IMG/VR virus record: IMGVR_UViG_3300027659_003120
Span: 1 to 64,000 of that record
Source of the DNA: a virus
Length of the DNA stretch: 64,000 nt
Strand: one strand, 5' to 3'
Notes under the pieces: generated by a model
What the model saw: only the letters and a program-made list of their open reading frames with translations
What the model was told of the DNA's origin: nothing
Databases searched by the model: none
Position numbers and translations under genes: made by a program
Part shown: one piece after another, positions 61,630 through 63,101 of the stretch
Position numbering within the stretch: position 1 is the stretch's first letter
How the letters are laid out: the number at the start of each line of letters is the position of its first letter

Positions 61630-62025
61630 ATGGTTAATTTATCAACCTTTATTGAGGTGTCACTAAAAGAACAAGATGATTTCTTGAAAGTGCGGGAAAC
61701 ATTAACCAGAATTGGTGTGTCTTCTCGTAGAGAAAAGATTTTATATCAGTCGTGTCATATTTTACATAAAAGAGGCCAATATTATATTGTCCATTTCAAA
61801 GAGCTATTTGCTTTGGATGGTAAAGACTCAAGTATAGTAGATAATGATATAGAAAGACGAAATGCCATAGCAAAGCTTTTAGAAGAATGGGAATTGGTAA
61901 AAATTGTTAATCCAGAAATTATGATAGATAAAATTGCACCAATACATCAAATTAAAATTATATCATTTCGTGAAAAAGACCAGTGGGAATTAGTAAGTAA
62001 GTATAACATCGGAAAAAAACTTTAA
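61630..62025 (+). CDS. regA: Translational repressor RegA
   Basis: DDFLKVRETLTRIG; LYQSCHILHK.G.Y.IVHFKELF. Confidence 0.97.
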   Translation: MVNLSTFIEVSLKEQDDFLKVRETLTRIGVSSRREKILYQSCHILHKRGQYYIVHFKELFALDGKDSSIVDNDIERRNAIAKLLEEWELVKIVNPEIMIDKIAPIHQIKIISFREKDQWELVSKYNIGKKL

Positions 62026-62042
62026 TGGTTGTTGAATATATT

Positions 62043-62228
62043 ATGAGAATAATTAAAGAAAAAATTGTAGAACTAAAAAATATATACTCTGGAGAGATTG
62101 TTTTCTCTAGTAATTTGTATGAAAAAAGAGTTGATGGCACAATGACATTTATTCAAGTTTATAAATCGGAAGATCCGCAAAGAAAATATCTTGTAAATTC
62201 TGCTGCGTTTGTAAAAGTGCATAAATAA
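62043..62228 (+). CDS. Hypothetical protein
   Basis: Small ORF after regA; start could also be 62025. Confidence 0.5.
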   Translation: MRIIKEKIVELKNIYSGEIVFSSNLYEKRVDGTMTFIQVYKSEDPQRKYLVNSAAFVKVHK

Positions 62229-62230
62229 AA

Positions 62231-62352
62231 GTACCCACCTTAGGGCTGTTTGATGCTACGGTATAAGGCGTCCGTGTAATTACACCTTCAGTACGTTAAT
62301 CTGGACCAGTATAAGGTAAGCTGGAGTTATGCCTTCGGGATAACATTTTTTT
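62231..62352 (+). ncRNA. Candidate structured RNA (two pseudoknots, kissing loop, cUUCGg hairpin)
   Basis: Locally GC-richer intergenic tract; manual pairing described in findings; CATAAATA at 62220 upstream. Confidence 0.55.
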
Positions 62353-62354
62353 AA

Positions 62355-62371
62355 CTTGCTTTTTAAAGGAG
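62355..62371 (+). promoter_or_regulatory. ROSE-like RNA thermometer hairpin
   Basis: cUUGCUu pairs with aAGGAg with a bulged G, sequestering the SD. Confidence 0.55.
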
Positions 62372-62380
62372 AAAACAACT

Positions 62381-62596
62381 ATGTTGTTATACGCAAACAT
62401 GGCTATTGATGCGATTCAAAATGCCAAAAATACCTTTCTTGACAACTCTGTTAAGGAAGAATCTATTAAAAAACCACTCAAAGCATTTGTTGAATCTCAA
62501 AGAGTATTCACTAAACAAATAGCTAAGTCTTTTTCTGATATAACTACAGCATACTCATCATATGATTATGCTAGTATCTTTAAACCGACTAAGTAA
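62381..62596 (+). CDS. Small amphipathic helical protein (phasin-like, tentative)
   Basis: Strong SD aaggag; amphipathic pattern. Confidence 0.55.
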   Translation: MLLYANMAIDAIQNAKNTFLDNSVKEESIKKPLKAFVESQRVFTKQIAKSFSDITTAYSSYDYASIFKPTK

Positions 62597-62615
62597 TTTT
62601 TTAAAGGAGAACTAT

Positions 62616-63065
62616 ATGACATTGCATAAATTTACACACCTGTATCCTTCGGTTGTTGGATTTGATAGACTTTTAGATACCTTTGATAATATGTTATCTG
62701 AAAAACCTACAACATTTCCACCACATAATATTATTAAAATTGATGACAATAATTATTCTGTTGAACTAGCAGTTGCTGGTTTCAATGAAGATGAAATTAG
62801 TGTTGAAATTTTAAAAGGTAATTTGACCATCAGTGGCACAAAAAGAAAAACTGAAGGAGAAACAAATTATCTATATCATGGAATTGGCGTTCGTTCATTT
62901 CAAAAGAATGTTAGATTAGCTGATACTGTAGAGGTTGCAGGAGCAATTTTAGATAATGGTATTCTTACTGTGAAACTTGTTAATATTACACCGATTGAAA
63001 AACAACCGGTAAAAATTGCAATTAAAACAGTAGGTAAAACTCAACTTTTGCAAGAAAGAGTTTAA
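62616..63065 (+). CDS. hsp20: Small heat shock protein Hsp20/IbpA
   Basis: GFDRL; FPPHNI; ELAVAGF; GI..RSF; A.LDNGIL; SD aaggag before ATG 62616. Confidence 0.93.
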   Translation: MTLHKFTHLYPSVVGFDRLLDTFDNMLSEKPTTFPPHNIIKIDDNNYSVELAVAGFNEDEISVEILKGNLTISGTKRKTEGETNYLYHGIGVRSFQKNVRLADTVEVAGAILDNGILTVKLVNITPIEKQPVKIAIKTVGKTQLLQERV

Positions 63066-63072
63066 AAAACAC

Positions 63073-63101
63073 TTGACTTTTCTGCCTATTTGTGCTATAA
63101 T
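63073..63101 (+). promoter_or_regulatory. sigma70 promoter
   Basis: TTGACT-17-TATAAT with TG extension. Confidence 0.75.

What the first reader, a model, noticed from the sequence alone, without database searches (positions are those of the whole stretch)
62220..62352. Compact multi-pseudoknot RNA between a late-promoter motif and a cUUCGg/U-tract hairpin
Seen (manual pairing): hairpin CCC-ACCUUA-GGG (62234-45), whose loop is exactly complementary to UAAGGU in the loop of CCAGU/GCUGG (62306-24); pseudoknot A, stem GAUGCU/GGCGUC (62252-72) with loop ACGG pairing to CUGU (62246-49); pseudoknot B of the same topology, stem UUCAG/CUGGA (62287-305) with loop UACG pairing to CGUG (62273-76); then GUUAU-G-CC-UUCG-GG-AUAAC and a 7-nt U-tract. 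GUAUAAGG occurs twice. I do not recognise it as a tRNA, riboswitch or ribozyme. Inference: a discrete ~120-nt phage RNA (decoy for a type III toxin or other defence protein, nuclease-resistant RNA, or ribozyme) or a complex leader controlling the hsp20 operon.
Basis: partly seen in the sequence, partly recalled or inferred. Interest (0 to 1): 0.8.

Follow-up and report, generated by a model that had tools for sequence, protein, structure and literature searches.

The report
Pseudoknotted RNA module before phage hsp20
The gap before this lake phage's small heat-shock operon encodes a real, conserved RNA of one hairpin and three interlocked pseudoknots that matches no catalogued family; it sits ahead of a bacterial-type (ROSE-like) temperature-sensing hairpin, and its own job is still unknown.

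Summary
The finding is real. One claim fails. The H1-loop/H4-loop kiss is broken in about half of the relatives. The H4 loop instead co-varies perfectly with three bases just 5' of hairpin H3, which makes a third pseudoknot.

No Rfam family, tRNA or cultured-phage sequence matches. Each of six phage records searched holds one copy. The module starts about one base after a T4-type late promoter. A bulged-G UUCG hairpin follows, then a CUYGCU/AGGAG hairpin that masks the ribosome-binding site; together these resemble short ROSE-like RNA thermometers. In 86% of 85 distinct copies the 71-aa ORF/hsp20 operon lies downstream.

The module is also portable. It occurs without hsp20, upstream of a late promoter, beside a tRNA, and before the terminase operon of an unrelated phage.

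Best reading (about 0.4): an autonomously folding 5' leader domain that protects and organises the message. A factor-binding aptamer or a discrete small RNA remain open. Earlier follow-ups of this scan found the same family on other genomes and reached similar conclusions.

The parts
62220..62227 (+). T4-type late-promoter motif (CATAAATA). The predicted start is about 62233, one base before H1.
   Evidence: Sequence. An NNTAAATA motif lies upstream of the first module in 109 of 119 distinct leaders (TATAAATA in 71). The first helix begins 2-8 nt after it. The position of the start is inferred from T4 late promoters.
62234..62245 (+). Hairpin H1: CCC/GGG stem with an invariant ACCUUA loop. The loop's partner is unknown.
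   Evidence: 97.9% paired; one pair changes on both sides (C-G to U-A). The loop bases are invariant.
62246..62272 (+). Pseudoknot A. Stem H2 is 62252-57 with 62267-72. Its loop ACGG (62258-61) pairs with CUGU (62246-49).
   Evidence: Loop helix 99.5% paired, with C-G to U-A in 2 sequences and U-G/C-G exchange in 16. H2 is 93% paired. Five of its 6 pairs change on both sides in the wider set.
62273..62305 (+). Pseudoknot B. Stem H3 is 62287-91 with 62301-05. Its loop UACG (62292-95) pairs with CGUG (62273-76). The linker holds N-AAUU-N' (62277-82) inside the palindrome GUGUAAUUACAC.
   Evidence: Loop helix 99% paired, with U-A 28, G-C 10 and A-U 7 at one pair. All 5 H3 pairs change on both sides. 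The lone pair 62277/62282 is U-A 24, C-G 19, A-U 5. The full palindromic hairpin fails at one pair in 20 of 48.
62284..62286 (+). 5' strand (ACC) of pseudoknot C. It pairs with GGU at 62315-17 in the H4 loop.
   Evidence: 100% paired; the third pair is U-A 26 / C-G 22. The same arrangement (RCY with RGU) co-varies in the short form.
62306..62324 (+). Hairpin H4: CCAG/CUGG stem with a nearly invariant 11-nt loop UAUAAGGUAAG.
   Evidence: 100% paired; A-U 29 / U-A 19 at one pair. The loop is conserved.
62326..62344 (+). Stable hairpin with a bulged G (62331) and a C(UUCG)G cap. It corresponds to the GC-rich first hairpin of short ROSE-like leaders.
   Evidence: 100% paired; 3 pairs change on both sides. 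The loop is UUCG in 110 of 126 leaders. Predicted -6.3 kcal/mol at 37 C.
62346..62352 (+). U7 tract after the hairpin. It looks like a terminator in this phage but is not conserved.
   Evidence: Sequence. Relatives have 1-7 U in the 9 nt after the stem, often after 1-3 A.
62355..62371 (+). ROSE-like hairpin, outside the finding's coordinates. CUUGCU pairs with the AGGAG ribosome-binding site, leaving G62358 bulged.
   Evidence: CUYGCU-N3-9-AGGAG is present in 114 of about 118 true leaders, with 24 different loop sequences. Predicted -3.3 kcal/mol at 5 C and +0.9 at 37 C. Rfam ROSE_3 aligns to this part of relative L184 below threshold.
62381..62596 (+). 71-aa ORF of unknown function, the first gene of the operon.
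   Evidence: No Pfam family. 52 related loci. Weak phasin-like lead only.
62616..63065 (+). hsp20 small heat-shock protein gene.
   Evidence: Pfam HSP20 at 1.2e-16; PHROG 432 at 2.3e-31.

Best explanation
62234-62324 encodes an autonomously folding RNA module made of a 5' hairpin and three interlocked H-type pseudoknots. In this phage it forms the 5' end of the late transcript of the ORF71-hsp20 operon. It is followed by a heat-stable bulged-G UUCG hairpin and by a weak hairpin in which CUUGCU masks the AGGAG ribosome-binding site (a ROSE-like thermosensor).

Shown: the fold, its conservation, one copy per phage record searched, its position after the late-promoter motif, and its usual linkage to the hsp20 operon.

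Inferred: the module acts in cis and needs no ligand. It would give the message a compact, nuclease-resistant 5' end with 0-3 unpaired bases, and so slow 5'-end-dependent decay. It would also keep upstream sequence from interfering with the marginally stable thermosensor hairpin. Translation itself would be gated by temperature-dependent melting of the 62355-71 hairpin, not by the module.
For: - Fold: covariation. The many G-U pairs fit only the + strand.
- Position: the first helix begins 2-8 nt after NNTAAATA in about 90% of leaders. In the window H1 starts 6 nt after CATAAATA.
- Linkage: 73 of 85 copies are followed by the UUCG hairpin and the SD-masking hairpin. Downstream genes belong to only two families, upstream genes to at least 8.
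- Interchangeability: other compact modules take the same place. These are a short form, or a GGGAUGGGAAC hairpin plus another pseudoknot. Phage C48C1 has only the two-hairpin leader.
- No coupling to an expression platform: the linker between H4 and the UUCG hairpin varies in length and sequence.
- Metatranscriptome contigs from 3 lake runs run from the module through the hairpin into the ORFs.
- Literature: the stable 5' hairpin of short ROSE-like leaders is thought to aid folding and mRNA stability, and disrupting it derepresses the thermometer (PMC3669281).
Against: - A simple hairpin would be enough for 5' protection. Three pseudoknots with invariant loops (ACCUUA; UAUNARGUAAG) suggest that something specific is recognised.
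- In one clade a late promoter lies between the module and the hsp20 leader, so there the module is not in the late 5' UTR.
- About 5 of 85 copies lack hsp20 downstream. One sits 8 nt before a tRNA-Thr. Others sit before a terminase operon in an unrelated phage.
- No transcript ends were mapped. The RNA-library contigs may include DNA.
Confidence: 0.4

Rival explanations
1. The module is an aptamer for a conserved small molecule or protein. Candidates include the neighbouring RegA repressor, RNA polymerase, or a ribosomal component. It would control read-through of the UUCG/U7 hairpin, as a riboswitch, attenuator or put-like antiterminator does, or it would control translation.
For: - Loop and junction bases are nearly invariant across divergent phages.
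- The module is portable between different downstream genes and phage types, as aptamers are.
- In the window it lies exactly between a promoter and a terminator-like hairpin with U7.
- regA is the commonest upstream neighbour: 44 of 95 distinct upstream gene ends.
Against: - No conserved alternative pairing links the module to the hairpin, and the spacer varies.
- The U-tract is not conserved.
- The genes served share no metabolic theme.
- Other modules substitute for it.
- No Rfam riboswitch or antiterminator family matches.
Confidence: 0.22
2. The module is released as a discrete, stable small RNA of about 95-120 nt that acts in trans, for example as a decoy or regulator. It would be made from the late promoter to the hairpin/U7, or by processing.
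For: - The late promoter and a strong terminator-like hairpin flank it in this clade.
- It is self-contained and occurs without hsp20. In L218 it lies 8 nt upstream of a tRNA-Thr, where RNase P cleavage would free it.
- It is a compact pseudoknotted fold.
Against: - Most relatives lack a good U-tract.
- One clade has no promoter directly upstream of the module.
- RNA-library contigs continue from the module into the ORFs in 3 runs.
- No target or partner gene is evident. There are no tandem repeats and no defence genes nearby.
Confidence: 0.2
3. The conservation reflects a DNA-level element, such as a protein-binding palindrome or a recombination cassette, or simply recent horizontal spread. 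On this reading the RNA has no function.
For: - A perfect 12-bp palindrome GTGTAATTACAC lies at 62274-85.
- The cassette is mosaic and mobile between phages.
- The intergenic DNA is 80-84% identical where the neighbouring protein is only 38-58% identical.
Against: - Compensatory changes keep 98% of pairs, including G-U pairs that would be A-C on the other strand.
- The outer palindrome positions are not conserved, whereas the competing pseudoknot pairs are.
Confidence: 0.04

Closest known systems
Short two-hairpin ROSE-like RNA thermometers of Pseudomonas ibpA (Rfam ROSE_3, RF02523; Krajewski et al. 2013, PMC3669281)
   Same: Both are 5' UTRs of a small heat-shock gene. Both have a stable GC-rich first hairpin, then a short hairpin in which U(U/C)GCU imperfectly pairs with the SD, leaving a bulged G. 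The start codon is left free. The ROSE_3 model aligns to exactly this part of a relative.
   Different: This resemblance concerns 62326-62371, not the module in question. The score is far below the family threshold (16 against 43 bits), and the window gives no hit at all. The upstream pseudoknot module has no counterpart in ROSE elements, whose 5' parts are plain hairpins. The host is a phage, and the predicted melting range is lower.
Pseudoknot at the 5' end of the T4 gene 32 mRNA leader
   Same: Both are small H-type pseudoknots at the 5' end of a leader in a T4-type phage, followed by an AU-rich unstructured stretch before the ribosome-binding site (my knowledge; mentioned in PMC10690425).
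   Different: Gene 32 has a single pseudoknot that nucleates binding of its own product. Here there are three interlocked pseudoknots. No nucleic-acid-binding product is encoded downstream, and no sequence similarity was seen.
5'-terminal stem-loops that stabilise E. coli mRNAs (ompA type)
   Same: A structured element within a few bases of the 5' end; predicted 0-3 unpaired bases. This role was proposed for ROSE hairpin I (PMC3669281).
   Different: The known stabilisers are simple hairpins without conserved loops. Stabilisation was not tested here.
Chains of small pseudoknots (tmRNA PK2-PK4; the pseudoknot domain upstream of the TMV tRNA-like structure)
   Same: Both are serial H-type pseudoknots with short loops that act as structural or protective domains (my knowledge).
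   Different: There is no tRNA-like domain or tag reading frame (ARAGORN found none). The location and the organism differ.
Bulk catalogue of candidate structured RNAs from IMG/VR (Fremin et al. 2023, PMC10690425)
   Same: It mined the same kind of viral contigs, so the motif may be among its 8,495 unnamed candidates.
   Different: The main text mentions no hsp20, heat shock or thermometer. The supplementary models are not held, so overlap could not be checked.

Membership tests
ROSE / ROSE-like RNA thermometer | Lies in the 5' UTR of a small heat-shock protein gene | tested here: met
   hsp20 lies at 62616-63065 behind the 71-aa ORF. Leaders in relatives precede only these two gene families.
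ROSE / ROSE-like RNA thermometer | In the 3'-proximal hairpin, U(U/C)GCU imperfectly pairs with the SD, with a bulged G (PMC3669281) | tested here: met
   CUUGCU at 62355-60 pairs with AGGAG at 62367-71, and G62358 is bulged. The motif is present in 114 of about 118 leaders with 24 different loops. It lies outside the finding's coordinates.
ROSE / ROSE-like RNA thermometer | Reaches the Rfam gathering score for ROSE, ROSE_2 or ROSE_3 | tested here: not met
   No ROSE hit in the window at E up to 10. ROSE_3 scores 16 bits against 43 on relative L184.
ROSE / ROSE-like RNA thermometer | The 5' part consists of one to three plain hairpins | tested here: not met
   62234-62324 forms a hairpin plus three pseudoknots supported by covariation.
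ROSE / ROSE-like RNA thermometer | The SD hairpin melts with temperature and derepresses translation | not testable with these tools
   Only predicted energies are available: -3.3 kcal/mol at 5 C, -0.7 at 25 C, +0.9 at 37 C.
Riboswitch (aptamer plus expression platform) | Conserved mutually exclusive pairing between the aptamer and a terminator or SD hairpin | tested here: inconclusive
   No such pairing was seen by eye. The spacer to the hairpin varies from 0 to 9 nt and in sequence. No systematic search for alternative folds was made.
Riboswitch (aptamer plus expression platform) | Matches a known aptamer family | tested here: not met
   Rfam 15 gave nothing at gathering score in the window or in 20 related loci apart from tRNAs, and nothing relevant at E up to 10.
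Intrinsic terminator | GC-rich hairpin immediately followed by a conserved U-tract | tested here: inconclusive
   The window has the hairpin plus U7. The simple scan does not call it, probably because the bulge interrupts the stem. In relatives the U run is short or set off by A's.
Type III toxin-antitoxin RNA (ToxI-like) | Tandem direct repeats next to a toxin gene | tested here: not met
   No tandem repeats. No PADLOC family matches the neighbouring proteins.
tRNA / tmRNA / tRNA-like | Cloverleaf or tRNA-like domain detectable | tested here: not met
   ARAGORN finds none in the window. No Rfam tRNA or tmRNA hit at this place.

The most novel reading that the evidence does not exclude
The module is a portable sensor or binding RNA of a new class. 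It would be a pseudoknot aptamer that recognises a conserved host or phage factor (RNA polymerase, the ribosome, RegA or a metabolite) and lets phages tune late operons. Alternatively it is freed as a trans-acting small RNA. Its invariant loops and its spread between unrelated phages would then reflect that target.
Probability: 0.25. Interest if true: 0.8.

Novelty: new variant of a known kind. Interest (0 to 1): 0.6.

Why it matters
This is a well-supported structured RNA family with no entry in Rfam. It is common in uncultured T4-like lake phages: more than 100 distinct sequences, and one copy in each of the six phage records searched.

It joins a bacterial-type RNA thermometer to a compact triple-pseudoknot domain, and it shows that phages carry such leaders on an auxiliary chaperone operon. 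I found no paper that describes a phage-borne ROSE-like thermometer.

If the module only stabilises the message, it is a compact, portable, natural 5' stability element. If it binds a factor, it would be a new class of phage riboregulator. Either way the fold is defined precisely enough here for direct probing and reporter tests.

Tried and rejected
- Minimum-free-energy folding gave no signal on either strand (z = 0.06 and -0.53). It cannot see pseudoknots.
- Rfam at gathering and at E-value thresholds on the window, 20 loci and L184 gave only tRNAs and noise, plus a sub-threshold ROSE_3 match.
- ARAGORN found nothing in the window.
- blastn of three leader variants against 50,697 cultured or deposited phage records found no match.
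- An exact-pattern scan of one genome per 185,579 prokaryote species gave one true hit, on a 1.8-kb contig in a MAG (probably phage DNA), and three chance hits.
- The H1/H4 six-base kiss was rejected on covariation. A shorter register, CUU with AAG, stacking on pseudoknot C, is possible. Both sides are invariant, so it cannot be tested this way.
- The GUGUAAUUACAC hairpin was rejected in favour of pseudoknot B, except for its inner pair.
- Leader peptide: the AUG at 62253 opens only 8 codons and is lost or truncated in relatives.
- The motifs AACTYGCTT and GCCTTCGGG do not recur elsewhere in the window.
- Metatranscriptome runs were available only as assembled contigs. They show presence and continuity, not transcript ends, strand or level, and DNA carry-over cannot be excluded.
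- The 71-aa protein has no Pfam, PHROG (weak only) or PADLOC family; there is only a weak phasin-like lead.
- The supplementary tables of the IMG/VR structured-RNA catalogue are not held.

Full report
**Setting**

The window is part of a 91.8-kb record of an uncultured T4-like phage, about half complete. The local gene order is:
- clamp-loader genes;
- regA at 61630-62025 (Pfam Translat_reg, 4e-47);
- a 67-aa ORF at 62025-62228;
- a 152-nt gap;
- a 71-aa ORF of unknown function at 62381-62596;
- hsp20 at 62616-63065 (Pfam HSP20, 1e-16);
- a strong sigma-70-type promoter;
- a metallophosphoesterase gene.

The finding occupies the gap.

Thermodynamic folding alone gives no support: z = 0.06 on the + strand and -0.53 on the - strand. 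So I turned to relatives.
- The 71-aa protein recovered 52 loci from IMG/VR.
- In several of them the gap is 80-84% identical to the window over about 150 nt, although the adjacent protein is only 38-58% identical. That was the first sign of a constrained non-coding element.
- Together they gave more than 100 distinct copies in two forms. The 'long' form is the window's. The 'short' form lacks one hairpin unit.

**The fold**

On 48 distinct long-form sequences (alignment A1) I scored these elements:
- H1: 62234-36 with 62243-45;
- pseudoknot A: H2 62252-57 with 62267-72, and 62246-49 with 62258-61;
- pseudoknot B: H3 62287-91 with 62301-05, and 62273-76 with 62292-95;
- H4: 62306-09 with 62321-24;
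- the bulged-G UUCG hairpin: 62327-33 with 62338-43;
- two extra interactions described below.

The results:
- 98.4% of cells pair, and 15 of 36 pairs change on both sides.
- No shuffle of 500 reaches these values, and sliding the 3' partner by 1-3 columns drops pairing to 27-45%.
- Pseudoknot B is the strongest. One loop pair is U-A in 28 sequences, G-C in 10 and A-U in 7, and C-G in L205. All five H3 pairs co-vary.
- Pseudoknot A's loop helix is 99.5% paired, with one C-G to U-A exchange and 16 U-G to C-G exchanges.
- H2 showed only one-sided changes in A1. More distant copies replace it wholesale (GAUACA/UGUAUC, AAUGC/GCAUU, GAUGUU/AAUAUC), and five of its six pairs then change on both sides.
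- Frequent G-U pairs, which would be A-C on the opposite strand, fix the RNA on the + strand.
- The short form is 100% paired, with 10 co-varying pairs.

The six-base kiss between the H1 loop (ACCUUA) and the H4 loop (UAAGGU) is exact in the window. Its central C-G is unpaired in 26 of 48 relatives, and a U-A is unpaired in 13. Instead G62315 co-varies perfectly with C62286: C-G in 22 sequences, U-A in 26, 100% paired.
- ACC at 62284-86, just 5' of H3, therefore pairs with GGU at 62315-17 in the H4 loop. This is a third pseudoknot.
- The short form has the same arrangement, RCY with RGU, with U-A in 19 and C-G in 10.
- The partner of the H1 loop is unknown. A three-base CUU/AAG contact that would stack on pseudoknot C is possible. 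Both sides are invariant, so covariation cannot test it.
- The palindrome GUGUAAUUACAC does not fold as a four-pair hairpin, because one pair fails in 20 of 48. Its innermost pair around AAUU does co-vary: U-A 24, C-G 19, A-U 5.
- The second GUAUAAGG and the U7 tract are not conserved.

**What surrounds it**

Upstream, an NNTAAATA late-promoter motif precedes the first structured module in 109 of 119 distinct leaders. It is TATAAATA in 71 and CATAAATA, as here, in 7. The first helix starts 2-8 nt after it. By analogy with T4, where the start lies about six bases after the motif (my knowledge), transcription would start at about 62233, one base before H1.

Downstream, the UUCG hairpin keeps a conserved top (Y-G-CC-UUCG-GG-R, with the G bulged) over a freely co-varying base.

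After an AU-rich spacer comes a motif flagged by another first-stage note (e1-6063091). CUYGCU pairs with the AGGAG ribosome-binding site and leaves a bulged G (62355-71).
- I found it in 114 of about 118 true leaders, with 24 different loop sequences of 3-9 nt. That is the pattern expected of a hairpin whose stem is fixed by function.
- Its predicted stability is marginal: -3.3 kcal/mol at 5 C, -0.7 at 25 C and +0.9 at 37 C.
- U(U/C)GCU against the SD in the 3'-proximal hairpin is the hallmark of ROSE-like thermometers of small heat-shock genes. The Pseudomonas ibpA versions consist of just a stable GC-rich hairpin plus this sensor hairpin (PMC3669281; PMC4166951).
- Rfam ROSE_3 aligns to exactly these two hairpins in relative L184, but far below threshold (16 against 43 bits, E = 0.35). 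The window itself gives no ROSE hit.

So 62326-62371 works like a short ROSE-like leader without qualifying as an Rfam member. The finding proper, 62234-62324, lies upstream of it.

**Linkage and portability**

- The covariance model R1, built from A1, finds one copy in the window's record. It also finds one in each of five relatives of 136-203 kb, four of them at least 98% complete.
- Genes behind the leaders fall into two families only: the 71-98-aa ORF (56 distinct) and hsp20 (48), plus one rubredoxin-like ORF. One metatranscriptome contig joins 62351 to 62599, which is a relative that lacks the small ORF.
- Genes in front fall into at least 8 unrelated families, with regA the commonest.
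- The 5' domain itself is mosaic. Some leaders carry the window's module. Others carry the short form behind a GGGAUGGGAAC hairpin. Others carry that hairpin plus a different co-varying H-type pseudoknot, or all of these in series.
- Phage C48C1 (Kyanoviridae) is the best hsp20 match among deposited phages. It has only a bulged-G hairpin and the CUUGCU/AGGAG hairpin.

Earlier follow-up notes of this scan on other genomes said that such modules also occur away from hsp20, so I tested this. Of 85 distinct long-form copies with enough flanking sequence:
- 73 are followed by the UUCG hairpin and the SD-masking hairpin;
- 4 have a TATAAATA motif directly after H4, so the module there lies upstream of the late promoter, a few bases after the regA stop codon;
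- about 5 have neither the UUCG hairpin nor the SD-masking hairpin behind them.

Among those exceptions:
- two follow regA but precede a carbamoyltransferase-like gene or an unknown 281-aa gene;
- one divergent copy lies 8 nt upstream of a tRNA-Thr, between a DNA methyltransferase and an HNH endonuclease gene;
- another precedes a PHROG-3900 gene and the terminase large subunit of a non-T4-like phage, where only near-identical relatives carry it.

The module is therefore self-contained and has moved between contexts and phage types.

**Is it known?**

- Rfam 15 has no match.
- blastn finds nothing in 50,697 phage records.
- One genome per prokaryote species holds a single true copy, on a 1.8-kb contig.
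- Literature searches found no description of a phage hsp20 leader or a phage-borne ROSE-like thermometer.
- A bulk catalogue of IMG/VR structured-RNA candidates (PMC10690425) may contain it unnamed. Its text does not mention it, and its supplements are not held.
- Within this scan the same family has been reported and followed up on other genomes, with matching conclusions.

**Expression**

Eighteen lake or freshwater metatranscriptome runs hold the stretch. Only assembled contigs were available. In three runs a contig runs from the module through the hairpin and U7 into the ORFs (62166-62638, 62247-82882 read as 62247-62882, and 62246-62707). That is consistent with read-through. Contigs cannot show ends, strand or level, and DNA carry-over cannot be excluded.

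**How it most likely works**

I commit, at about 0.4, to a cis-acting structural role.
- The module gives the late ORF71-hsp20 message a compact, pseudoknotted 5' end with 0-3 unpaired bases. That should impede 5'-end-dependent decay.
- It would also insulate the weak thermosensor hairpin from misfolding. This is an elaborated version of the role proposed for the stable first hairpin of ROSE-like leaders (PMC3669281).
- The 62355-71 hairpin does the temperature gating.

In favour: the position at the predicted 5' end, free substitution by other compact modules, leaders that work without it, and no conserved coupling to the downstream hairpins.

Against: the fold is far more elaborate than protection requires, its loop bases are invariant, one clade has the module upstream of the late promoter, and it also occurs next to a tRNA and before a terminase operon.

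These points keep two rivals open:
- a factor-binding aptamer, attenuator or antiterminator (about 0.22);
- a discrete trans-acting small RNA (about 0.2).

Strand-specific covariation largely excludes a purely DNA-level explanation.

**Verdict**

The element is a new structured-RNA family attached to a known kind of regulator. Its own function is unresolved, and the fold is defined well enough for direct experiments.

Noticed in passing
window 62355-62371: ROSE-like hairpin: CUUGCU pairs with the AGGAG ribosome-binding site of the 71-aa ORF, with a bulged G. The copy of UUUUUAAAGGAGAA before hsp20 (62600-62613) lacks the anti-SD. Another first-stage reader flagged this as a separate finding.
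   Followed up: partly
window 63073-63101: Near-consensus sigma-70 promoter (TTGACT, 17 nt with TG, TATAAT) directly after hsp20 and before the metallophosphoesterase gene (63127 onward). This marks an early-type unit next to the late hsp20 unit.
   Followed up: no
window 62381-62596: The 71-aa ORF belongs to a family of 71-98-aa phage proteins that often sits between the leader and hsp20. It has no Pfam family and only a weak phasin-like lead in the protein atlas (score 0.88).
   Followed up: partly
L006, L014, L025, L037, L184 and others, upstream of the UUCG hairpin: Alternative 5' modules in relatives: a hairpin with invariant GGGAUGGGAAC, followed by a small H-type pseudoknot with an A-rich third loop whose two stems co-vary by eye. 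It loosely resembles a preQ1-I aptamer but gets no Rfam hit at E up to 10.
   Followed up: partly
L218:7672-7850: A divergent copy of the module ends 8 nt before a tRNA-Thr(UGU) gene in a contig that is not T4-like (DNA methyltransferase upstream; PHROG-3900 protein and HNH endonuclease downstream).
   Followed up: partly
L221:8673-8801, L258, L259: A copy of the module lies upstream of a PHROG-3900 gene and the terminase large subunit in an unrelated phage lineage. It is absent or barely detectable in that lineage's more distant relatives, which suggests recent acquisition.
   Followed up: partly
L186, L189, L193, L199, L217: In this clade the module starts a few bases after the regA stop codon, and a TATAAATA late promoter follows it directly. 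The hsp20 leader hairpins come after that, so the module there lies outside the late 5' UTR.
   Followed up: partly
window 62274-62285: Perfect 12-bp palindrome GTGTAATTACAC. Only the inner N-AAUU-N' stays self-complementary in relatives (UAAUUA, CAAUUG, AAAUUU). This fits a closing base pair, and equally an intermolecular kissing (dimerisation) site.
   Followed up: partly
L017, L038, L043, L047, about 1.2-2.5 kb downstream of the leader: Clusters of tRNA genes lie shortly downstream of the hsp20 region in several relatives. None lies in this window.
   Followed up: no
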